Shown one piece after another: positions 1 through 37,088 of a stretch of DNA of 37,088 bases. The notes beneath the pieces are model-generated. The model was not told where the DNA came from and did no database searches. It was given only the letters and a program-made list of their open reading frames with translations. This DNA is from Escherichia phage T7: the sequence record OL964748.1. One strand, given 5' to 3'. The translations under genes and the position numbers were made by a program. How positions within the stretch are numbered: position 1 is the first letter of the stretch; each line of letters begins with the position of its first letter.

Positions 1-151
1 TCTCACAGTGTACGGACCTAAAGTTCCCCCATAGGGGTACCTAAAGCCCAGCCAATCACCTAAAGTCAATGACCTTGAGGGTTCCCTAAGGGTTGGGGAT
101 GACCCTTGGGTTTGTCTTTGGGTGTTACCTTGAGTGTCTCTCTGTGTCCCT
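1..151. repeat. Left terminal direct repeat of the T7 genome
   Basis: 1..151 is identical to 36938..37088 at the other end of the window; begins with the canonical T7 end TCTCACAGTGTACGG. Confidence 0.95.
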
Positions 152-360: not shown

Positions 361-364
361 TTTA

Positions 365-427
365 ATCATTGTCTTTATTAATACAATCATTGTCTTTATT
401 AATATAATCATTGTCTTTATTAATACA
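365..427. repeat. Perfect tandem triplication of a 21-bp AT-rich unit (atcattgtctttattaata[c/t]a) abutting phiOL
   Basis: Three head-to-tail copies at 365..385, 386..406, 407..427 (one c/t difference in copy 2); only copy 3 continues into the full promoter core. Confidence 0.9.
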
Positions 428-443
428 ACTCACTATAAGGAGA
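421..443 (+). promoter_or_regulatory. T7 RNA polymerase promoter phiOL
   Basis: taatacaactcactataaggaga, 17-mer core plus initiating region. Confidence 0.85.
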
Positions 444-531: not shown

Positions 532-642
532 TCGAGAGGGACACGGCGAATAGCCATCCCAATCGACACCGGGGTCAACCGGGCGCACAGTGCCTTCTAG
601 GTGACTTAAGCGCACCACGGCACATAAGGTGAAACAAAACGG

Positions 643-1619: not shown

Positions 1620-4271
1620 ATGAACACGATTAACATCGCTAAGAACGACTTCTCTGACATCGAACTGGCTGCTATCCCGTTCAACACTCTGGCTGACCAT
1701 TACGGTGAGCGTTTAGCTCGCGAACAGTTGGCCCTTGAGCATGAGTCTTACGAGATGGGTGAAGCACGCTTCCGCAAGATGTTTGAGCGTCAACTTAAAG
1801 CTGGTGAGGTTGCGGATAACGCTGCCGCCAAGCCTCTCATCACTACCCTACTCCCTAAGATGATTGCACGCATCAACGACTGGTTTGAGGAAGTGAAAGC
1901 TAAGCGCGGCAAGCGCCAGACAGCCTTCCAGTTCCTGCAAGAAATCAAGCCGGAAGCCGTAGCGTACATCACCATTAAGACCACTCTGGCTTGCCTAACC
2001 AGTGCTGACAATACAACCGTTCAGGCTGTAGCAAGCGCAATCGGTCGGGCCATTGAGGACGAGGCTCGCTTCGGTCGTATCCGTGACCTTGAAGCTAAGC
2101 ACTTCAAGAAAAACGTTGAGGAACAACTCAACAAGCGCGTAGGGCACGTCTACAAGAAAGCATTTATGCGAGTTGTCGAGGCTGACATGCTCTCTAAGGG
2201 TCTACTCGGTGGCGAGGCGTGGTCTTCGTGGCATAAGGAAGACTCTATTCATGTAGGAGTACGCTGCATCGAGATGCTCATTGAGTCAACCGGAATGGTT
2301 AGCTTACACCGCCAAAATGCTGGCGTAGTAGGTCAAGACTCTGAGACTATCGAACTCGCACCTGAATACGCTGAGGCTATCGCAACCCGTGCAGGTGCGC
2401 TGGCTGGCATCTCTCCGATGTTCCAACCTTGCGTAGTTCCTCCTAAGCCGTGGACTGGCATTACTGGTGGTGGCTATTGGGCTAACGGTCGTCGTCCTCT
2501 GGCGCTGGTGCGTACTCACAGTAAGAAAGCACTGATGCGCTACGAAGACGTTTACATGCCTGAGGTGTACAAAGCGATTAACATTGCGCAAAACACCGCA
2601 TGGAAAATCAACAAGAAAGTCCTAGCGGTCGCCAACGTAATCACCAAGTGGAAGCATTGTCCGGTCGAGGACATCCCTGCGATTGAGCGTGAAGAACTCC
2701 CGATGAAACCGGAAGACATCGACATGAATCCTGAGGCTCTCACCGCGTGGAAACGTGCTGCCGCTGCTGTGTACCGCAAGGACAAGGCTCGCAAGTCTCG
2801 CCGTATCAGCCTTGAGTTCATGCTTGAGCAAGCCAATAAGTTTGCTAACCATAAGGCCATCTGGTTCCCTTACAACATGGACTGGCGCGGTCGTGTTTAC
2901 GCTGTGTCAATGTTCAACCCGCAAGGTAACGATATGACCAAAGGACTGCTTACGCTGGCGAAAGGTAAACCAATCGGTAAGGAAGGTTACTACTGGCTGA
3001 AAATCCACGGTGCAAACTGTGCGGGTGTCGATAAGGTTCCGTTCCCTGAGCGCATCAAGTTCATTGAGGAAAACCACGAGAACATCATGGCTTGCGCTAA
3101 GTCTCCACTGGAGAACACTTGGTGGGCTGAGCAAGATTCTCCGTTCTGCTTCCTTGCGTTCTGCTTTGAGTACGCTGGGGTACAGCACCACGGCCTGAGC
3201 TATAACTGCTCCCTTCCGCTGGCGTTTGACGGGTCTTGCTCTGGCATCCAGCACTTCTCCGCGATGCTCCGAGATGAGGTAGGTGGTCGCGCGGTTAACT
3301 TGCTTCCTAGTGAAACCGTTCAGGACATCTACGGGATTGTTGCTAAGAAAGTCAACGAGATTCTACAAGCAGACGCAATCAATGGGACCGATAACGAAGT
3401 AGTTACCGTGACCGATGAGAACACTGGTGAAATCTCTGAGAAAGTCAAGCTGGGCACTAAGGCACTGGCTGGTCAATGGCTGGCTTACGGTGTTACTCGC
3501 AGTGTGACTAAGCGTTCAGTCATGACGCTGGCTTACGGGTCCAAAGAGTTCGGCTTCCGTCAACAAGTGCTGGAAGATACCATTCAGCCAGCTATTGATT
3601 CCGGCAAGGGTCTGATGTTCACTCAGCCGAATCAGGCTGCTGGATACATGGCTAAGCTGATTTGGGAATCTGTGAGCGTGACGGTGGTAGCTGCGGTTGA
3701 AGCAATGAACTGGCTTAAGTCTGCTGCTAAGCTGCTGGCTGCTGAGGTCAAAGATAAGAAGACTGGAGAGATTCTTCGCAAGCGTTGCGCTGTGCATTGG
3801 GTAACTCCTGATGGTTTCCCTGTGTGGCAGGAATACAAGAAGCCTATTCAGACGCGCTTGAACCTGATGTTCCTCGGTCAGTTCCGCTTACAGCCTACCA
3901 TTAACACCAACAAAGATAGCGAGATTGATGCACACAAACAGGAGTCTGGTATCGCTCCTAACTTTGTACACAGCCAAGACGGTAGCCACCTTCGTAAGAC
4001 TGTAGTGTGGGCACACGAGAAGTACGGAATCGAATCTTTTGCACTGATTCACGACTCCTTCGGTACCATTCCGGCTGACGCTGCGAACCTGTTCAAAGCA
4101 GTGCGCGAAACTATGGTTGACACATATGAGTCTTGTGATGTACTGGCTGATTTCTACGACCAGTTCGCTGACCAGTTGCACGAGTCTCAATTGGACAAAA
4201 TGCCAGCACTTCCGGCTAAAGGTAACTTGAACCTCCGTGACATCTTAGAGTCGGACTTCGCGTTCGCGTAA
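1620..4271 (+). CDS. 1: T7 RNA polymerase (gene 1)
   Basis: 883-aa ORF starting MNTINIAKNDFSDIELAAIPFNTLADHYGERLAREQLALEHESYEMGEARFRKMFERQLKAGEVADNAAAKPLITTLLPKMIARINDWFEEVKAKRGKR..., ending ...LRDILESDFAFA. Confidence 0.98.
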   Translation: MNTINIAKNDFSDIELAAIPFNTLADHYGERLAREQLALEHESYEMGEARFRKMFERQLKAGEVADNAAAKPLITTLLPKMIARINDWFEEVKAKRGKRQTAFQFLQEIKPEAVAYITIKTTLACLTSADNTTVQAVASAIGRAIEDEARFGRIRDLEAKHFKKNVEEQLNKRVGHVYKKAFMRVVEADMLSKGLLGGEAWSSWHKEDSIHVGVRCIEMLIESTGMVSLHRQNAGVVGQDSETIELAPEYAEAIATRAGALAGISPMFQPCVVPPKPWTGITGGGYWANGRRPLALVRTHSKKALMRYEDVYMPEVYKAINIAQNTAWKINKKVLAVANVITKWKHCPVEDIPAIEREELPMKPEDIDMNPEALTAWKRAAAAVYRKDKARKSRRISLEFMLEQANKFANHKAIWFPYNMDWRGRVYAVSMFNPQGNDMTKGLLTLAKGKPIGKEGYYWLKIHGANCAGVDKVPFPERIKFIEENHENIMACAKSPLENTWWAEQDSPFCFLAFCFEYAGVQHHGLSYNCSLPLAFDGSCSGIQHFSAMLRDEVGGRAVNLLPSETVQDIYGIVAKKVNEILQADAINGTDNEVVTVTDENTGEISEKVKLGTKALAGQWLAYGVTRSVTKRSVMTLAYGSKEFGFRQQVLEDTIQPAIDSGKGLMFTQPNQAAGYMAKLIWESVSVTVVAAVEAMNWLKSAAKLLAAEVKDKKTGEILRKRCAVHWVTPDGFPVWQEYKKPIQTRLNLMFLGQFRLQPTINTNKDSEIDAHKQESGIAPNFVHSQDGSHLRKTVVWAHEKYGIESFALIHDSFGTIPADAANLFKAVRETMVDTYESCDVLADFYDQFADQLHESQLDKMPALPAKGNLNLRDILESDFAFA

Positions 4272-4279
4272 CGCCAAAT

Positions 4280-4302
4280 CAATACGACTCACTATAGGAG
4301 AA
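4280..4302 (+). promoter_or_regulatory. Single hybrid T7 promoter phi1.1A/phi1.1B (upstream flank of 1.1A, downstream of 1.1B)
   Basis: caatacgactcactataggagaacc lies 8 bp after the gene 1 stop; gene 1 stop to gene 1.1 start is 109 bp instead of 184 bp. Confidence 0.8.
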
Positions 4303-4380
4303 CCTTAAGGTTTAACTTTAAGACCCTTAAGTGTTAATTAGAGATTTAAATTAAAGAATTAATAAGAGAGGACTTTAAGT

Positions 4381-4509
4381 ATGCGTAACTTCGAAAAGAT
4401 GACCAAACGTTCTAACCGTAATGCTCGTGACTTCGAGGCAACCAAAGGTCGCAAGTTGAATAAGACTAAGCGTGACCGCTCTCACAAGCGTAGCTGGGAG
4501 GGTCAGTAA
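4381..4509 (+). CDS. 1.1: gene 1.1 protein (42 aa)
   Basis: MRNFEKMTKRSNRNARDFEATKGRKLNKTKRDRSHKRSWEGQ; below the ORF-track size cutoff, translated by hand. Confidence 0.85.
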   Translation: MRNFEKMTKRSNRNARDFEATKGRKLNKTKRDRSHKRSWEGQ

Positions 4510-4510
4510 G

Positions 4511-4768
4511 ATGGGACGTTTATATAGTGGTAATCTGGCAGCATTCAAGGCAGCAACAAACAAGCTGTTCCAGTTAGACTTAGCTGTCATTTATGATGAC
4601 TGGTATGATGCCTATACAAGAAAAGATTGCATACGGTTACGTATTGAGGACAGGAGTGGAAACCTGATTGATACTAGCACCTTCTACCACCACGACGAGG
4701 ACGTTCTGTTCAATATGTGTACTGATTGGTTGAACCATATGTATGACCAGTTGAAGGACTGGAAGTAA
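4511..4768 (+). CDS. 1.2: gene 1.2 protein (inhibitor of host dGTPase)
   Basis: Internal ATG at 4511 gives 85 aa MGRLYSGNLAAFKAATNKLFQLDLAVIYDDWYD...; the track ORF 4472..4768 is an upstream extension. Confidence 0.85.
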   Translation: MGRLYSGNLAAFKAATNKLFQLDLAVIYDDWYDAYTRKDCIRLRIEDRSGNLIDTSTFYHHDEDVLFNMCTDWLNHMYDQLKDWK

Positions 4769-4788
4769 TACGACTCAGTATAGGGACA
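4766..4788 (+). promoter_or_regulatory. T7 promoter phi1.3
   Basis: taatacgactcagtatagggaca, followed by the R1.3 hairpin region. Confidence 0.85.
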
Positions 4789-4848: not shown

Positions 4849-5928
4849 ATGATGAACATTAAGACTAACCCGTTTAAAGCCGTGTCTTTCGTAGAGTCTG
4901 CCATTAAGAAGGCTCTGGATAACGCTGGGTATCTTATCGCTGAAATCAAGTACGATGGTGTACGCGGGAACATCTGCGTAGACAATACTGCTAACAGTTA
5001 CTGGCTCTCTCGTGTATCTAAAACGATTCCGGCACTGGAGCACTTAAACGGGTTTGATGTTCGCTGGAAGCGTCTACTGAACGATGACCGTTGCTTCTAC
5101 AAAGATGGCTTTATGCTTGATGGGGAACTCATGGTCAAGGGCGTAGACTTTAACACAGGGTCCGGCCTACTGCGTACCAAATGGACTGACACGAAGAACC
5201 AAGAGTTCCATGAAGAGTTATTCGTTGAACCAATCCGTAAGAAAGATAAAGTTCCCTTTAAGCTGCACACTGGACACCTTCACATAAAACTGTACGCTAT
5301 CCTCCCGCTGCACATCGTGGAGTCTGGAGAAGACTGTGATGTCATGACGTTGCTCATGCAGGAACACGTTAAGAACATGCTGCCTCTGCTACAGGAATAC
5401 TTCCCTGAAATCGAATGGCAAGCGGCTGAATCTTACGAGGTCTACGATATGGTAGAACTACAGCAACTGTACGAGCAGAAGCGAGCAGAAGGCCATGAGG
5501 GTCTCATTGTGAAAGACCCGATGTGTATCTATAAGCGCGGTAAGAAATCTGGCTGGTGGAAAATGAAACCTGAGAACGAAGCTGACGGTATCATTCAGGG
5601 TCTGGTATGGGGTACAAAAGGTCTGGCTAATGAAGGTAAAGTGATTGGTTTTGAGGTGCTTCTTGAGAGTGGTCGTTTAGTTAACGCCACGAATATCTCT
5701 CGCGCCTTAATGGATGAGTTCACTGAGACAGTAAAAGAGGCCACCCTAAGTCAATGGGGATTCTTTAGCCCATACGGTATTGGCGACAACGATGCTTGTA
5801 CTATTAACCCTTACGATGGCTGGGCGTGTCAAATTAGCTACATGGAGGAAACACCTGATGGCTCTTTGCGGCACCCATCGTTCGTAATGTTCCGTGGCAC
5901 CGAGGACAACCCTCAAGAGAAAATGTAA
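4849..5928 (+). CDS. 1.3: ATP-dependent DNA ligase (gene 1.3)
   Basis: 359-aa ORF with the ligase adenylation motif context (IAEIKYDGVRG). Confidence 0.95.
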   Translation: MMNIKTNPFKAVSFVESAIKKALDNAGYLIAEIKYDGVRGNICVDNTANSYWLSRVSKTIPALEHLNGFDVRWKRLLNDDRCFYKDGFMLDGELMVKGVDFNTGSGLLRTKWTDTKNQEFHEELFVEPIRKKDKVPFKLHTGHLHIKLYAILPLHIVESGEDCDVMTLLMQEHVKNMLPLLQEYFPEIEWQAAESYEVYDMVELQQLYEQKRAEGHEGLIVKDPMCIYKRGKKSGWWKMKPENEADGIIQGLVWGTKGLANEGKVIGFEVLLESGRLVNATNISRALMDEFTETVKEATLSQWGFFSPYGIGDNDACTINPYDGWACQISYMEETPDGSLRHPSFVMFRGTEDNPQEKM

Positions 5929-5935
5929 TCACACT

Positions 5936-5967
5936 GGCTCACCTTCGGGTGGGCCTTTCTGCGTTTA
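5936..5967 (+). terminator. Early intrinsic terminator TE (for E. coli RNA polymerase)
   Basis: GC-rich hairpin ggctcacc-ttcg-ggtgggcc followed by tttctgcgttta. Confidence 0.85.
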
Positions 5968-5978
5968 TAAGGAGACAC

Positions 5979-6001
5979 TTTTACGACTCACTAAAGGAGG
6001 T
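5979..6001 (+). promoter_or_regulatory. T7 promoter phi1.5 with altered upstream edge (-16/-15 TT instead of AA)
   Basis: ttttacgactcactaaaggagg; core -14..+6 intact, -17..-15 region formed by the gene 1.4 deletion junction. Confidence 0.7.
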
Positions 6002-6008
6002 ACACACC

Positions 6009-7275: not shown

Positions 7276-7974
7276 ATGGCTAAGAAGATTTTCACCTCTG
7301 CGCTGGGTACCGCTGAACCTTACGCTTACATCGCCAAGCCGGACTACGGCAACGAAGAGCGTGGCTTTGGGAACCCTCGTGGTGTCTATAAAGTTGACCT
7401 GACTATTCCCAACAAAGACCCGCGCTGCCAGCGTATGGTCGATGAAATCGTGAAGTGTCACGAAGAGGCTTATGCTGCTGCCGTTGAGGAATACGAAGCT
7501 AATCCACCTGCTGTAGCTCGTGGTAAGAAACCGCTGAAACCGTATGAGGGTGACATGCCGTTCTTCGATAACGGTGACGGTACGACTACCTTTAAGTTCA
7601 AATGCTACGCGTCTTTCCAAGACAAGAAGACCAAAGAGACCAAGCACATCAATCTTGTTGTGGTTGACTCAAAAGGTAAGAAGATGGAAGACGTTCCGAT
7701 TATCGGTGGTGGCTCTAAGCTGAAAGTTAAATATTCTCTGGTTCCATACAAGTGGAACACTGCTGTAGGTGCGAGCGTTAAGCTGCAACTGGAATCCGTG
7801 ATGCTGGTCGAACTGGCTACCTTTGGTGGCGGTGAAGACGATTGGGCTGACGAAGTTGAAGAGAACGGCTATGTTGCCTCTGGTTCTGCCAAAGCGAGCA
7901 AACCACGCGACGAAGAAAGCTGGGACGAAGACGACGAAGAGTCCGAGGAAGCAGACGAAGACGGAGACTTCTAA
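7276..7974 (+). CDS. 2.5: Single-stranded DNA-binding protein (gene 2.5)
   Basis: 232-aa ORF with acidic C-terminal tail ...DEDDEESEEADEDGDF. Confidence 0.95.
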   Translation: MAKKIFTSALGTAEPYAYIAKPDYGNEERGFGNPRGVYKVDLTIPNKDPRCQRMVDEIVKCHEEAYAAAVEEYEANPPAVARGKKPLKPYEGDMPFFDNGDGTTTFKFKCYASFQDKKTKETKHINLVVVDSKGKKMEDVPIIGGGSKLKVKYSLVPYKWNTAVGASVKLQLESVMLVELATFGGGEDDWADEVEENGYVASGSAKASKPRDEESWDEDDEESEEADEDGDF

Positions 7975-8394
7975 GTGGAACTGCGGGAGAAAATCCTTGA
8001 GCGAATCAAGGTGACTTCCTCTGGGTGTTGGGAGTGGCAGGGCGCTACGAACAATAAAGGGTACGGGCAGGTGTGGTGCAGCAATACCGGAAAGGTTGTC
8101 TACTGTCATCGCGTAATGTCTAATGCTCCGAAAGGTTCTACCGTCCTGCACTCCTGTGATAATCCATTATGTTGTAACCCTGAACACCTATCCATAGGAA
8201 CTCCAAAAGAGAACTCCACTGACATGGTAAATAAGGGTCGCTCACACAAGGGGTATAAACTTTCAGACGAAGACGTAATGGCAATCATGGAGTCCAGCGA
8301 GTCCAATGTATCCTTAGCTCGCACCTATGGTGTCTCCCAACAGACTATTTGTGATATACGCAAAGTGAGGCGACATGGCAGGTTACGGCGCTAA
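7975..8394 (+). CDS. 2.8: gene 2.8 protein, HNH-type endonuclease-like (GTG start)
   Basis: 139-aa ORF with HNH-like motif (CHRVMSNAP...HSCDNPLCCNPEHL); GTG start immediately after the 2.5 stop. Confidence 0.8.
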   Translation: MELREKILERIKVTSSGCWEWQGATNNKGYGQVWCSNTGKVVYCHRVMSNAPKGSTVLHSCDNPLCCNPEHLSIGTPKENSTDMVNKGRSHKGYKLSDEDVMAIMESSESNVSLARTYGVSQQTICDIRKVRRHGRLRR

Positions 8395-9280: not shown

Positions 9281-9303
9281 TAATTGAACTCACTAAAGGG
9301 AGA
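9281..9303 (+). promoter_or_regulatory. T7 promoter phi3.8
   Basis: aattaattgaactcactaaagggaga. Confidence 0.8.
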
Positions 9304-11164: not shown

Positions 11165-11187
11165 TAATACGACTCACTAAAGGCCAC
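11165..11187 (+). promoter_or_regulatory. T7 promoter phi4.3
   Basis: taatacgactcactaaaggcc. Confidence 0.8.
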
Positions 11188-11305
11188 ACAGTCACGCGCT
11201 CTGGCGATTCGCTCCAACGAACTGGCTGACAGTGCATCCACTAAAGTTACCGAGGCTGCCCGTGTGGCAAACCAAGCTCAACAGCTTTCCAAATTCTTTG
11301 AGTAA
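11183..11305 (+). pseudogene. 4.3: 3' remnant of gene 4.3; ribosome-binding site, start codon and 5' coding region missing (100-bp deletion)
   Basis: Gene 4 stop to gene 4.5 start is 100 bp shorter than expected; remaining sequence runs from the promoter straight into ...KFFE-stop (TAA 11303..11305). Confidence 0.6.
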
Positions 11306-11324
11306 TCAAACAGGAGAAACCATT

Positions 11325-11594
11325 ATGTCTAACGTAGCTGAAACTATCCGTCTATCCGATACAGCTGACCAGTGGAACCGTCGAGTCCACATCAACGTTC
11401 GCAACGGTAAGGCGACTATGGTTTACCGCTGGAAGGACTCTAAGTCCTCTAAGAATCACACTCAGCGTATGACGTTGACAGATGAGCAAGCACTGCGTCT
11501 GGTCAATGCGCTTACCAAAGCTGCCGTGACAGCAATTCATGAAGCTGGTCGCGTCAATGAAGCTATGGCTATCCTCGACAAGATTGATAACTAA
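11325..11594 (+). CDS. 4.5: gene 4.5 protein (89 aa)
   Basis: MSNVAETIRLSDTADQWNRRVHINVRNGKATMVYRWKD...; the track ORF 11232..11594 is an upstream extension. Confidence 0.85.
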   Translation: MSNVAETIRLSDTADQWNRRVHINVRNGKATMVYRWKDSKSSKNHTQRMTLTDEQALRLVNALTKAAVTAIHEAGRVNEAMAILDKIDN

Positions 11595-11993: not shown

Positions 11994-14108
11994 ATGATCG
12001 TTTCTGACATCGAAGCTAACGCCCTCTTAGAGAGCGTCACTAAGTTCCACTGCGGGGTTATCTACGACTACTCCACCGCTGAGTACGTAAGCTACCGTCC
12101 GAGTGACTTCGGTGCGTATCTGGATGCGCTGGAAGCCGAGGTTGCACGAGGCGGTCTTATTGTGTTCCACAACGGTCACAAGTATGACGTTCCTGCATTG
12201 ACCAAACTGGCAAAGTTGCAATTGAACCGAGAGTTCCACCTTCCTCGTGAGAACTGTATTGACACCCTTGTGTTGTCACGTTTGATTCATTCCAACCTCA
12301 AGGACACCGATATGGGTCTTCTGCGTTCCGGCAAGTTGCCCGGAAAACGCTTTGGGTCTCACGCTTTGGAGGCGTGGGGTTATCGCTTAGGCGAGATGAA
12401 GGGTGAATACAAAGACGACTTTAAGCGTATGCTTGAAGAGCAGGGTGAAGAATACGTTGACGGAATGGAGTGGTGGAACTTCAACGAAGAGATGATGGAC
12501 TATAACGTTCAGGACGTTGTGGTAACTAAAGCTCTCCTTGAGAAGCTACTCTCTGACAAACATTACTTCCCTCCTGAGATTGACTTTACGGACGTAGGAT
12601 ACACTACGTTCTGGTCAGAATCCCTTGAGGCCGTTGACATTGAACATCGTGCTGCATGGCTGCTCGCTAAACAAGAGCGCAACGGGTTCCCGTTTGACAC
12701 AAAAGCAATCGAAGAGTTGTACGTAGAGTTAGCTGCTCGCCGCTCTGAGTTGCTCCGTAAATTGACCGAAACGTTCGGCTCGTGGTATCAGCCTAAAGGT
12801 GGCACTGAGATGTTCTGCCATCCGCGAACAGGTAAGCCACTACCTAAATACCCTCGCATTAAGACACCTAAAGTTGGTGGTATCTTTAAGAAGCCTAAGA
12901 ACAAGGCACAGCGAGAAGGCCGTGAGCCTTGCGAACTTGATACCCGCGAGTACGTTGCTGGTGCTCCTTACACCCCAGTTGAACATGTTGTGTTTAACCC
13001 TTCGTCTCGTGACCACATTCAGAAGAAACTCCAAGAGGCTGGGTGGGTCCCGACCAAGTACACCGATAAGGGTGCTCCTGTGGTGGACGATGAGGTACTC
13101 GAAGGAGTACGTGTAGATGACCCTGAGAAGCAAGCCGCTATCGACCTCATTAAAGAGTACTTGATGATTCAGAAGCGAATCGGACAGTCTGCTGAGGGAG
13201 ACAAAGCATGGCTTCGTTATGTTGCTGAGGATGGTAAGATTCATGGTTCTGTTAACCCTAATGGAGCAGTTACGGGTCGTGCGACCCATGCGTTCCCAAA
13301 CCTTGCGCAAATTCCGGGTGTACGTTCTCCTTATGGAGAGCAGTGTCGCGCTGCTTTTGGCGCTGAGCACCATTTGGATGGGATAACTGGTAAGCCTTGG
13401 GTTCAGGCTGGCATCGACGCATCCGGTCTTGAGCTACGCTGCTTGGCTCACTTCATGGCTCGCTTTGATAACGGCGAGTACGCTCACGAGATTCTTAACG
13501 GCGACATCCACACTAAGAACCAGATAGCTGCTGAACTACCTACCCGAGATAACGCTAAGACGTTCATCTATGGGTTCCTCTATGGTGCTGGTGATGAGAA
13601 GATTGGACAGATTGTTGGTGCTGGTAAAGAGCGCGGTAAGGAACTCAAGAAGAAATTCCTTGAGAACACCCCCGCGATTGCAGCACTCCGCGAGTCTATC
13701 CAACAGACACTTGTCGAGTCCTCTCAATGGGTAGCTGGTGAGCAACAAGTCAAGTGGAAACGCCGCTGGATTAAAGGTCTGGATGGTCGTAAGGTACACG
13801 TTCGTAGTCCTCACGCTGCCTTGAATACCCTACTGCAATCTGCTGGTGCTCTCATCTGCAAACTGTGGATTATCAAGACCGAAGAGATGCTCGTAGAGAA
13901 AGGCTTGAAGCATGGCTGGGATGGGGACTTTGCGTACATGGCATGGGTACATGATGAAATCCAAGTAGGCTGCCGTACCGAAGAGATTGCTCAGGTGGTC
14001 ATTGAGACCGCACAAGAAGCGATGCGCTGGGTTGGAGACCACTGGAACTTCCGGTGTCTTCTGGATACCGAAGGTAAGATGGGTCCTAATTGGGCGATTT
14101 GCCACTGA
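11994..14108 (+). CDS. 5: DNA polymerase (gene 5), family A polymerase with 3'-5' exonuclease
   Basis: 704-aa [42 protein letters not shown]... Confidence 0.98.
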
Positions 14109-14123
14109 TACAGGAGGCTACTC

Positions 14124-14480
14124 ATGAACGAAAGACACTTAACAGGTGCTGCTTCTGAAATGCTAGTAGCCTACAAATTTACCAAAGCTGGGTACACTGT
14201 CTATTACCCTATGCTGACTCAGAGTAAAGAGGACTTGGTTGTATGTAAGGATGGTAAATTTAGTAAGGTTCAGGTTAAAACAGCCACAACGGTTCAAACC
14301 AACACAGGAGATGCCAAGCAGGTTAGGCTAGGTGGATGCGGTAGGTCCGAATATAAGGATGGAGACTTTGACATTCTTGCGGTTGTGGTTGACGAAGATG
14401 TGCTTATTTTCACATGGGACGAAGTAAAAGGTAAGACATCCATGTGTGTCGGCAAGAGAAACAAAGGCATAAAACTATAG
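14124..14480 (+). CDS. 5.3: gene 5.3 protein
   Basis: 118-aa ORF at the canonical position after gene 5. Confidence 0.85.
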   Translation: MNERHLTGAASEMLVAYKFTKAGYTVYYPMLTQSKEDLVVCKDGKFSKVQVKTATTVQTNTGDAKQVRLGGCGRSEYKDGDFDILAVVVDEDVLIFTWDEVKGKTSMCVGKRNKGIKL

Positions 14481-19209: not shown

Positions 19210-20133
19210 ATGGCTGAATCTAATGCAGACGTATATGCATCTTTTGGCGTGAACTCCGCTGTGATGTCTGGTGGTTCCGTTGAGGAACATGAGCAGAACA
19301 TGCTGGCTCTTGATGTTGCTGCCCGTGATGGCGATGATGCAATCGAGTTAGCGTCAGACGAAGTGGAAACAGAACGTGACCTGTATGACAACTCTGACCC
19401 GTTCGGTCAAGAGGATGACGAAGGCCGCATTCAGGTTCGTATCGGTGATGGCTCTGAGCCGACCGATGTGGACACTGGAGAAGAAGGCGTTGAGGGCACC
19501 GAAGGTTCCGAAGAGTTTACCCCACTGGGCGAGACTCCAGAAGAACTGGTAGCTGCCTCTGAGCAACTTGGTGAGCACGAAGAGGGCTTCCAAGAGATGA
19601 TTAACATTGCTGCTGAGCGTGGCATGAGTGTCGAGACCATTGAGGCTATCCAGCGTGAGTACGAGGAGAACGAAGAGTTGTCCGCCGAGTCCTACGCTAA
19701 GCTGGCTGAAATTGGCTACACGAAGGCTTTCATTGACTCGTATATCCGTGGTCAAGAAGCTCTGGTGGAGCAGTACGTAAACAGTGTCATTGAGTACGCT
19801 GGTGGTCGTGAACGTTTTGATGCACTGTATAACCACCTTGAGACGCACAACCCTGAGGCTGCACAGTCGCTGGATAATGCGTTGACCAATCGTGACTTAG
19901 CGACCGTTAAGGCTATCATCAACTTGGCTGGTGAGTCTCGCGCTAAGGCGTTCGGTCGTAAGCCAACTCGTAGTGTGACTAATCGTGCTATTCCGGCTAA
20001 ACCTCAGGCTACCAAGCGTGAAGGCTTTGCGGACCGTAGCGAGATGATTAAAGCTATGAGTGACCCTCGGTATCGCACAGATGCCAACTATCGTCGTCAA
20101 GTCGAACAGAAAGTAATCGATTCGAACTTCTGA
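19210..20133 (+). CDS. 9: Capsid assembly (scaffolding) protein (gene 9)
   Basis: 307-aa acidic ORF MAESNADVYASFGVNSAVMSGGSVEEHEQNMLALD... Confidence 0.95.
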   Translation: MAESNADVYASFGVNSAVMSGGSVEEHEQNMLALDVAARDGDDAIELASDEVETERDLYDNSDPFGQEDDEGRIQVRIGDGSEPTDVDTGEEGVEGTEGSEEFTPLGETPEELVAASEQLGEHEEGFQEMINIAAERGMSVETIEAIQREYEENEELSAESYAKLAEIGYTKAFIDSYIRGQEALVEQYVNSVIEYAGGRERFDALYNHLETHNPEAAQSLDNALTNRDLATVKAIINLAGESRAKAFGRKPTRSVTNRAIPAKPQATKREGFADRSEMIKAMSDPRYRTDANYRRQVEQKVIDSNF

Positions 20134-20146
20134 TAGACTTCGAAAT

Positions 20147-20169
20147 TAATACGACTCACTATAGGGAGA
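20147..20169 (+). promoter_or_regulatory. T7 promoter phi10 with the gene 10 leader and strong RBS
   Basis: taatacgactcactatagggagaccacaacggtttccctctagaaataattttgtttaactttaagaaggagatatacat ATG. Confidence 0.95.
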
Positions 20170-20226
20170 CCACAACGGTTTCCCTCTAGAAATAATTTTG
20201 TTTAACTTTAAGAAGGAGATATACAT

Positions 20227-36937: not shown

Positions 36938-37088
36938 TCTCACAGTGTACGGACCTAAAGTTCCCCCATAGGGGTACCTAAAGCCCAGCCAATCACCTAA
37001 AGTCAATGACCTTGAGGGTTCCCTAAGGGTTGGGGATGACCCTTGGGTTTGTCTTTGGGTGTTACCTTGAGTGTCTCTCTGTGTCCCT
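36938..37088. repeat. Right terminal direct repeat
   Basis: Identical to 1..151. Confidence 0.95.

What the first reader, a model, noticed from the sequence alone, without database searches (positions are those of the whole stretch)
4272..4380. phi1.1A and phi1.1B collapsed into one hybrid promoter, deleting RNase III site R1.1 inside the primary replication-origin region
Wild-type T7 has two promoters about 75 bp apart between genes 1 and 1.1, with the R1.1 hairpin between them and an AT-rich region downstream; together these form the primary origin. Here there is one promoter whose upstream flank (caatacg, 8 bp after the gene 1 stop) is phi1.1A-like and whose downstream sequence (ggagaaccttaaggtttaac) is phi1.1B-like, and the interval is 75 bp short. 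This looks like homologous recombination between the two promoter cores. The AT-rich segment (about 4333..4378) is retained, so origin function may persist with a single promoter.
Basis: partly seen in the sequence, partly recalled or inferred. Interest (0 to 1): 0.5.

Follow-up and report, generated by a model that had tools for sequence, protein, structure and literature searches.

The report
T7 origin promoters fused by deletion
In this laboratory T7 mutant, a clean 75-bp deletion between two identical 17-bp promoter cores has fused the two origin promoters into one and removed an RNA-processing hairpin; this is a real but ordinary kind of phage deletion in a region already known to tolerate loss.

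Summary
The window is a complete, genome-reduced laboratory T7. Its siblings are GenBank clones T7_1t2 and T7_1t3, and its exact 100-bp and whole-gene deletions match the CiPGr CRISPR genome-reduction design.

Window 4200-4520 equals wild-type T7 minus exactly 75 bp, plus one C>A at 4362. The deletion endpoints lie in the 17-bp direct repeat AATACGACTCACTATAG shared by phi1.1A and phi1.1B, and one copy remains (4281-4297).

The result is a single promoter (4280-4302, +1 at 4297). It carries the phi1.1A upstream flank (-17 C) and the phi1.1B transcribed sequence. The R1.1 RNase III hairpin is absent from the whole window. The AT-rich tract (4333-4378, 80% AT) and gene 1.1 are intact.

Both sibling clones and 171 phage records keep the two-promoter layout. 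The junction was not found in any collection searched.

The best explanation is a spontaneous direct-repeat deletion (single-strand annealing or replication slippage), unique to this clone and probably tolerated. Viable T7 constructs lacking phi1.1A, or lacking phi1.1B plus the AT tract, already exist, and T7 grows without RNase III. Whether the origin still fires here was not tested. Interest is low: a new allele of a known kind.

The parts
1620..4271 (+). Gene 1 (T7 RNA polymerase, 883 aa). Carries P100Q and Q184R relative to wild type, both shared with the sibling clones.
   Evidence: ORF list, sibling annotation, variant tables.
4272..4279 (+). 8-nt spacer (cgccaaat) between the gene 1 stop and the promoter. 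Identical to the wild-type phi1.1A upstream flank.
4280..4302 (+). Single hybrid class II T7 promoter, -17 to +6, CAATACGACTCACTATA|GGAGAA, with +1 at 4297. Position -17 C and everything upstream come from phi1.1A. The +2 to +6 sequence and everything downstream come from phi1.1B.
   Evidence: Promoter scan, core search, side-by-side comparison with both parent promoters.
4281..4297 (.). Deletion junction: the one retained copy of the 17-bp direct repeat AATACGACTCACTATAG. The crossover lies somewhere within it. The 75 bp lost are one repeat copy plus the 58-nt unique spacer that holds RNase III site R1.1.
   Evidence: BLAST segments overlap by 17 nt at this point, alignment, exact reconstruction.
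4303..4380 (+). Retained AT-rich tract of the primary origin region, which is also the gene 1.1 leader and ribosome-binding site. It is 74% AT overall and 80% AT in 4333-4378. Identical to wild type except at position 4362.
   Evidence: Origin annotation in the related phage R record.
4362..4362 (+). C>A substitution (WT 5988) inside the AT-rich tract, 19 nt upstream of the gene 1.1 ATG. Shared with OL964749 and OL964750, so it predates the 75-bp deletion.
4381..4509 (+). Gene 1.1 (42 aa), intact and identical to wild type.
   Evidence: Wild-type annotation.
4511..4768 (+). Gene 1.2 (dGTPase inhibitor), intact with one synonymous change. It is followed by phi1.3, whose +1 is at 4783.
   Evidence: Coordinate offset of 1626 from the wild-type annotation.

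Best explanation
This is a real, spontaneous 75-bp deletion that arose in one clone of a laboratory genome-reduced T7 line. It formed between the 17-bp direct repeats that make up the cores of promoters phi1.1A and phi1.1B.

How it formed (inferred): either single-strand annealing after resection of a break, or template slippage during replication.

What it left (shown): one promoter whose recognition core (-16 to +1) is identical to both parents. It has the phi1.1A upstream flank, and its transcript has the same sequence as a phi1.1B transcript.

Expected consequences (inferred):
- T7 RNA polymerase still starts at 4297 and transcribes into the intact AT-rich tract. The region can therefore still prime rightward DNA synthesis and express genes 1.1-1.3, from one promoter instead of two.
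- Early E. coli RNA polymerase transcripts are no longer cut between genes 1 and 1.1, so gene 1 mRNA stays joined to the 1.1-1.2 message until R1.3.
- The change is tolerated and is most likely neutral or of small effect.
For: Exact 75-bp gap with 17-bp repeat endpoints and no filler sequence.

One promoter core and no R1.1 in the interval. The hairpin is present in the deleted wild-type stretch. The AT tract and gene 1.1 are intact.

Sibling clones OL964749 and OL964750 share nearly all other deletions and SNPs but keep both promoters. The event is therefore recent and private to this clone.

Three other deletions in the same genome also have repeat endpoints of 9, 13 and 9 bp, so this mechanism was active in the lineage.

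Literature:
- T7 deletion mutants arise at direct repeats (Studier 1979 and Kong & Masker 1994, as cited in PMC5630979).
- Single-strand annealing between direct repeats deletes one repeat and the spacer (PMC11611040).
- T7 promoters have recombined with each other in evolved lines (PMC3737178).

Tolerance:
- T7 delta-1 lacks phi1.1A and its authors attach no significance to that (PMC6171733).
- The 'T7_mini' record PP384394 lacks phi1.1B, the AT tract and genes 1.1-1.8.
- Secondary origins serve when the primary origins are deleted (PMC8373140).
- T7 grows in hosts that lack RNase III (PMC6938266).
Against: No reads were available, so an assembly or consensus error cannot be formally excluded.

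Nothing here measures promoter activity, replication initiation or RNA processing in this clone.

The two-promoter/R1.1 layout is kept in 171 related records. That argues it has some selective value in nature, so 'neutral' may be too generous.

The assignment of the window to the CiPGr study and to clone T7_1t1 is inferred, not read from a record. It rests on the deletion pattern, the sibling names and the absence of OL964748 from the collection.
Confidence: 0.85

Rival explanations
1. Assembly or consensus artefact. The phage actually has both promoters, and the short-read de novo assembly collapsed the repeat.
For: If the window belongs to the CiPGr study (itself an inference), its genome was assembled de novo from short reads with SOAPdenovo2, as that study did for its mutants. 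The two copies share a repeat. One low-quality chimeric record (PSP2-22, UNVERIFIED_ORG) shows a similar collapse plus a 4-bp loss.
Against: The exact repeat is only 17 bp, shorter than usual assembly k-mers. More than 100 T7 mutant records, including the two sibling clones (probably from the same study), keep both promoters. The six identical 23-bp class III promoters in this window are placed correctly.
Confidence: 0.06
2. A designed CRISPR/HR edit from the genome-reduction library, not a spontaneous event.
For: The genome carries designed edits: exact 100-bp deletions and an exact whole-gene 1.4 deletion. The method is described in PMC9825161.
Against: Designed cassettes remove 100 bp or a whole gene. 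This deletion is 75 bp and intergenic, its endpoints sit exactly on a natural 17-bp repeat, and both siblings from the same selection lack it.
Confidence: 0.03
3. The deletion is real but adaptive. It was selected because halving class II promoter dose at this site, or removing R1.1 and thereby changing gene 1 mRNA fate, improves growth in this reduced genome, which carries RNA polymerase P100Q/Q184R.
For: The clone came from a selection for fast host killing (inferred assignment). A second of the five changes private to this window hits a promoter: G>A at -11 of phi4.7. The sibling OL964749 has private changes at +2 of phi10 and +6 of phi13. P100 lies in the polymerase loop that reads the AT-rich upstream part of the promoter (my own knowledge).
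Against: Only one of three sibling plaques has the deletion. The study's best T7 mutant was still less fit than wild type. A 17-bp repeat only 58 bp from its partner is expected to delete often, so hitch-hiking is enough to explain it. Natural relatives conserve the two-promoter layout.
Confidence: 0.12
4. The deletion is real but disables the primary origin, and replication in this clone starts at secondary origins such as phiOR or phi6.5.
For: Secondary origins take over when the primary origins are deleted (PMC8373140). Tandem promoters initiated replication better than single ones in a cell-free system (PMC12796468).
Against: A promoter with an intact core and the complete AT-rich tract remain. 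From my recollection of Fuller & Richardson 1985 and Rabkin & Richardson 1988, one promoter plus the AT-rich region supports initiation.
Confidence: 0.12

Closest known systems
Wild-type T7 primary origin region (phi1.1A - R1.1 - phi1.1B - AT-rich tract, WT 5831-6006)
   Same: Same location between genes 1 and 1.1. Same rightward class II promoter core, identical AT-rich tract (apart from one base) and identical gene 1.1.
   Different: One promoter instead of two. The 58-nt spacer with RNase III site R1.1 is gone. The promoter is a chimera of phi1.1A upstream and phi1.1B downstream sequence.
Classical T7 direct-repeat deletions (Studier et al. 1979; Kong & Masker 1994, cited in PMC5630979)
   Same: Endpoints lie in short perfect direct repeats, one copy is retained and there is no filler. 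The same signature is seen at three other deletions in this genome.
   Different: Here the repeats are functional promoter cores, so the deletion rebuilds a working-looking promoter. I found no earlier report of this particular allele.
T7 delta-1 (Bull/Ellington/Molineux strains), which lacks gene 1 and phi1.1A
   Same: Leaves a single promoter (phi1.1B) in front of the AT-rich tract. Its authors treat the loss of phi1.1A as unimportant (PMC6171733).
   Different: That deletion is engineered, also removes gene 1, and needs polymerase supplied in trans. I did not read whether R1.1 is retained there.
T7_mini (PP384394.1), a recombinant minimised T7
   Same: A T7 genome record (35,807 bp) described as a recombinant clone, with this region disrupted and R1.1 truncated.
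   Different: It is the mirror image: it keeps phi1.1A and loses phi1.1B, the AT-rich tract and genes 1.1-1.8.
Promoter-to-promoter recombination in evolved T7 (T7:LME; Springman 2005, PMC3737178)
   Same: T7 promoter sequences act as the homology for rearrangement.
   Different: That event was a reciprocal exchange of multi-kilobase segments between distant promoters, not a 75-bp local deletion.
Serratia phage vB_SmaP-UFV01 (MT543041), a natural variant of the same intergenic region
   Same: A phi1.1A-like promoter follows the gene 1 stop, and a phi1.1B plus AT tract identical to T7 precedes gene 1.1.
   Different: The spacer is expanded by a 477-bp HNH homing endonuclease gene instead of being deleted. 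Two promoters are kept.

Membership tests
T7 RNA polymerase promoter (class II) | 23-bp match to the -17..+6 consensus TAATACGACTCACTATAGGGAGA, with the conserved core -16..+1 | tested here: met
   4280-4302 CAATACGACTCACTATAGGAGAA matches 19 of 23 positions. The core -16..+1 is identical to phi1.1A and phi1.1B. The -17 C is the natural phi1.1A base.
T7 RNA polymerase promoter (class II) | Initiation by T7 RNA polymerase at +1 G | not testable with these tools
   Needs a transcription assay.
T7 primary origin of replication | Two tandem rightward T7 promoters (phi1.1A and phi1.1B) | tested here: not met
   Only one promoter lies between gene 1 and gene 1.1.
T7 primary origin of replication | AT-rich tract immediately downstream of the promoter(s), between genes 1 and 1.1 | tested here: met
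   4303-4380 is 74% AT and 4333-4378 is 80% AT, identical to wild type apart from C>A at 4362.
T7 primary origin of replication | DNA synthesis actually starts here in infection | not testable with these tools
   Needs initiation mapping.
RNase III processing site R1.1 | The R1.1 irregular hairpin between genes 1 and 1.1 | tested here: not met
   No match to the R1.1 sequence in the window at up to 3 mismatches. Folding of 4240-4330 and of 4297-4380 was not significantly more stable than shuffled sequence (z = -1.84 and -0.62), whereas the deleted wild-type stretch folds at z = -2.7. Rfam holds no family for it.
Direct-repeat deletion (single-strand annealing or slippage) | Perfect direct repeat at both endpoints in the parent, one copy retained, no inserted bases | tested here: met
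   17-bp AATACGACTCACTATAG at WT 5832-5848 and 5907-5923, with a single copy at window 4281-4297.
Direct-repeat deletion (single-strand annealing or slippage) | A close relative still carries the undeleted arrangement | tested here: met
   OL964749 and OL964750 share the backbone mutations but keep both promoters.
Direct-repeat deletion (single-strand annealing or slippage) | Dependence on a double-strand break, or on T7 exonuclease (gp6) and the annealing protein gp2.5 | not testable with these tools
   Genetic test needed. Six possible SpCas9 cut sites exist in the spacer, but no evidence shows that any was targeted.
CiPGr designed deletion | Removes exactly 100 bp or one whole gene, as set by 50-bp homology arms | tested here: not met
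   The deletion is 75 bp, intergenic and bounded by repeats.

The most novel reading that the evidence does not exclude
The collapse is not a passenger but part of a selected re-tuning of T7 transcription in these genome-reduced lines. The lines carry polymerase changes P100Q and Q184R. They then repeatedly alter promoters:
- phi1.1A/B fused and phi4.7 changed at -11 in this clone.
- phi10 changed at +2 and phi13 at +6 in a sibling.
- The upstream half of phiOL amplified 3-4 fold in all three clones.

On this reading, losing phi1.1A and R1.1 raises fitness by changing class II output or gene 1 mRNA fate.
Probability: 0.1. Interest if true: 0.4.

Novelty: new member of a known kind. Interest (0 to 1): 0.2.

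Why it matters
If confirmed on the physical phage, this clone is a ready-made natural test of two textbook elements. It would show whether one promoter plus the AT-rich tract is enough for the T7 primary origin in a whole phage, and whether R1.1, the standard RNase III substrate, matters for gene 1 and gene 1.1 expression in vivo. It also warns genome designers that the 17-23-bp T7 promoter repeats are deletion hot spots. Both elements are already known to be dispensable, so the result would refine existing understanding without changing it.

Tried and rejected
- Full-text search for accession OL964749 found nothing.
- The CiPGr paper's supplementary tables are not held. I therefore could not confirm the accession list or see whether the authors recorded this deletion. 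The main text does not discuss promoters or origins of T7.
- OL964748, the likely identity of the window, is not in the phage collection, so the assignment stays an inference.
- Romano 1981 (PMC319735) and Kong & Masker 1994 (PMC196806) are not held. I did not try to retrieve Rabkin & Richardson 1988. The statement that one promoter plus the AT-rich region is sufficient therefore rests on my memory.
- An Rfam scan of the wild-type region and the window gave no family, so R1.1 could not be tested with a curated model.
- Junction searches in INPHARED phages, IMG/VR, JGI metagenomes and GTDB genomes were all empty.
- I considered a Cas9-induced break as the trigger. Possible cut sites exist in the spacer, but the library targets genes, and a cut in gene 1.1 would not lie between the repeats. 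This stays speculation.
- I considered C5988A as a CRISPR escape. It lies 7 nt from an AGG PAM, but the protospacer is upstream of gene 1.1. Unresolved.

Full report
**What the window is.** The 37,088-bp window begins with the T7 left end and carries a terminal repeat (window 1-151 matches 36,938-37,088), so it is a complete T7 genome. Against wild-type T7 (V01146, 39,937 bp) it is about 99.8% identical in the aligned segments but lacks ten stretches:
- WT 550-644
- WT 1257-2723, which fuses gene 0.3 to gene 0.7
- WT 5849-5906 plus one repeat copy (the finding)
- WT 7608-7763, exactly gene 1.4
- WT 8163-8262
- WT 11186-11453
- WT 13350-13439
- WT 14172-14271
- WT 19848-20216
- WT 39565-39664

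Several of these are exactly 100 bp or one exact gene. That matches the design of the CRISPR/Cas9 iterative genome-reduction method CiPGr, which uses 'cassette-100' and 'cassette-gene' edits (PMC9825161).

The closest records are 'Mutant Escherichia phage T7 clone T7_1t2' (OL964749) and 'T7_1t3' (OL964750). The neighbouring accession OL964748 is missing from the collection. The CiPGr paper picked three plaques per library after eight transfers that selected for fast killing, and reports a T7 mutant reduced by 7.1%; the window is reduced by 7.13%. I infer that the window is the third sibling (T7_1t1), but I could not read this from any record.

**The observation.** The alignment of window 4240-4400 with wild type and OL964749 has a single 75-column gap. 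A script confirmed that window 4200-4520 equals wild type with WT 5849-5923 (equivalently 5832-5906) removed, plus C>A at window 4362. The two placements are equivalent because the 17-mer AATACGACTCACTATAG occurs at both ends (WT 5832-5848 and 5907-5923). The window keeps one copy, at 4281-4297.

Written from -22 to +6, the three promoters are:
- phi1.1A: CAAAT CAATACGACTCACTATA|GAGGGA
- phi1.1B: CCGGT TAATACGACTCACTATA|GGAGAA
- window: CAAAT CAATACGACTCACTATA|GGAGAA

Only one promoter core lies between 4272 and 4380, and the R1.1 sequence is absent from the entire window. The deleted wild-type stretch folds into the expected irregular hairpin (-22.1 kcal/mol, z = -2.7), and a related record annotates R1.1 between the promoters. 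The AT-rich tract (4333-4378, 80% AT against 51.5% for the genome) and gene 1.1 (4381-4509) are intact.

**How unusual it is.** A query built so that only a true junction gives full coverage found no such record among 50,697 phage genomes; the best coverage was 92%, in a phage with a different flank. Exact and slightly degenerate junction patterns were absent from IMG/VR, JGI metagenomes and GTDB genomes.

The wild-type arrangement is covered at 80% or more in one piece by 171 records. These include natural relatives such as Yersinia phages R and Y and coliphage 13a, where phi1.1A, R1.1, phi1.1B and the origin are annotated. Both sibling clones share the window's backbone, including gene 1 P100Q and Q184R and the C5988A change, but keep both promoters. 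The deletion is therefore a late event private to this clone.

**How it arose.** Three other deletions in this genome also end in perfect repeats: GTCAACCGG (9 bp), AGGAAGTCGAGGA (13 bp) and AAAGGGAGA (9 bp). The promoter repeat is the longest of the set, at 17 bp with only 58 bp between the copies.

T7 deletion mutants have long been known to form at direct repeats (Studier 1979 and Kong & Masker 1994, cited in PMC5630979). Annealing of resected ends between direct repeats removes one repeat and the spacer (PMC11611040). T7 promoters have acted as recombination homology in evolved lines (PMC3737178).

A designed edit is unlikely, because the library removes 100 bp or whole genes and this deletion is 75 bp and intergenic.

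An assembly artefact is also unlikely. The repeat is shorter than usual k-mers, more than 100 T7 mutant records, including the two sibling clones, keep both promoters, and the six identical 23-bp late promoters are resolved in this window. Without reads, however, an artefact cannot be excluded.

**What it probably does.** These steps are inferred.
- The promoter core is unchanged and -17 C is the native phi1.1A base, so the promoter should work. Its transcript has the same sequence as a phi1.1B transcript.
- The AT-rich tract where RNA primers are handed to T7 DNA polymerase is intact. From my recollection of Fuller & Richardson 1985 and Rabkin & Richardson 1988, one promoter plus this tract supports initiation.
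- Early host-polymerase transcripts lose the R1.1 cut, so gene 1 mRNA should stay joined to the 1.1-1.2 message.

Tolerance is well supported. T7 delta-1 lacks phi1.1A (PMC6171733). T7_mini lacks phi1.1B, the AT tract and genes 1.1-1.8. Secondary origins substitute for the primary origins (PMC8373140). T7 grows without RNase III (PMC6938266).

A cell-free study found that tandem promoters initiate replication better than single ones (PMC12796468). Together with the conservation in natural relatives, this suggests a modest cost is possible.

**Comparison and verdict.** The feature works like a trimmed T7 primary origin with a class II promoter. It fails the two-promoter and R1.1 criteria of the wild-type element. 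It meets every sequence criterion of a direct-repeat deletion.

It is a new allele of a well-known kind, in a laboratory strain, in a region known to be dispensable, so interest is low. The most novel reading still open is that it belongs to a selected re-tuning of promoters in lines with an altered polymerase. Other promoter-proximal changes in these clones hint at this, but nothing tests it.

Noticed in passing
window 364-428: A 21-bp unit, AATCATTGTCTTTATTAATAC, overlaps the upstream end of promoter phiOL. It is single-copy in wild-type T7 but present in 3 tandem copies here and in OL964749, and in 4 copies in OL964750.
   Followed up: partly
window 11645 (WT 13904): A G>A change private to this window at position -11 of promoter phi4.7 (TCGACTCACTATAG becomes TCAACTCACTATAG). 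From my own knowledge this is a key recognition base. It is the second of the five changes private to this clone that hits a class II promoter.
   Followed up: partly
window 1918 and 2170 (gene 1 codons 100 and 184): T7 RNA polymerase carries P100Q and Q184R, shared by all three sibling clones. From my own knowledge, residue 100 lies in the AT-rich recognition loop that reads promoter positions -17 to -13.
   Followed up: no
window 574-582, 1173-1185 and 9295-9303: Three further deletions are bounded by perfect direct repeats. A 104-bp deletion removes E. coli promoter A2 (repeat GTCAACCGG). A 1480-bp deletion fuses gene 0.3 to gene 0.7 in frame, giving a 231-aa ORF at 854-1549 (repeat AGGAAGTCGAGGA). 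A 277-bp deletion runs from the phi3.8 start into gene 3.8 (repeat AAAGGGAGA).
   Followed up: partly
window 5979-6001: The exact deletion of gene 1.4 changes the first three bases of promoter phi1.5 (TAATACG... becomes TTTTACG...), so the designed edit clips a promoter.
   Followed up: no
window 1-151 and 36938-37088; also 150-240: The terminal repeat is 151 bp instead of 160 bp: one G and an 8-bp stretch are missing at both ends. The short-repeat array at 150-240 carries a cluster of about a dozen substitutions and single-base indels relative to wild type. The repeat sequence itself (window 1-151) matches OL964749 exactly; the 150-240 cluster was not compared site by site with the siblings.
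   Followed up: no
window 17220 (WT 19579-19590): A 12-bp in-frame deletion in gene 7.3, shared by all three sibling clones.
   Followed up: no
L008 (ON886116.1, Salmonella phage PSP2-22, UNVERIFIED_ORG), locus about 430-470: This chimeric, unverified record shows a similar collapse of phi1.1A and phi1.1B into one promoter-like sequence. It also lacks 4 bp of the core (TTAATA----TCACTATAGG), and its gene 1.1 is joined to unrelated DNA. This is either an independent event or an assembly problem.
   Followed up: partly
L006 (MT543041.1, Serratia phage vB_SmaP-UFV01), locus 730-1206: In this natural T7 relative, a 477-bp HNH homing endonuclease gene sits between the phi1.1A-like and phi1.1B promoters, where T7 has R1.1.
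   Followed up: partly
window 4362 (WT 5988): The C>A change in the AT-rich origin tract lies 7 nt from an AGG PAM (protospacer WT 5975-5994). It could be a Cas9 escape mutation, or a change affecting the gene 1.1 leader. It is shared by all three siblings.
   Followed up: partly
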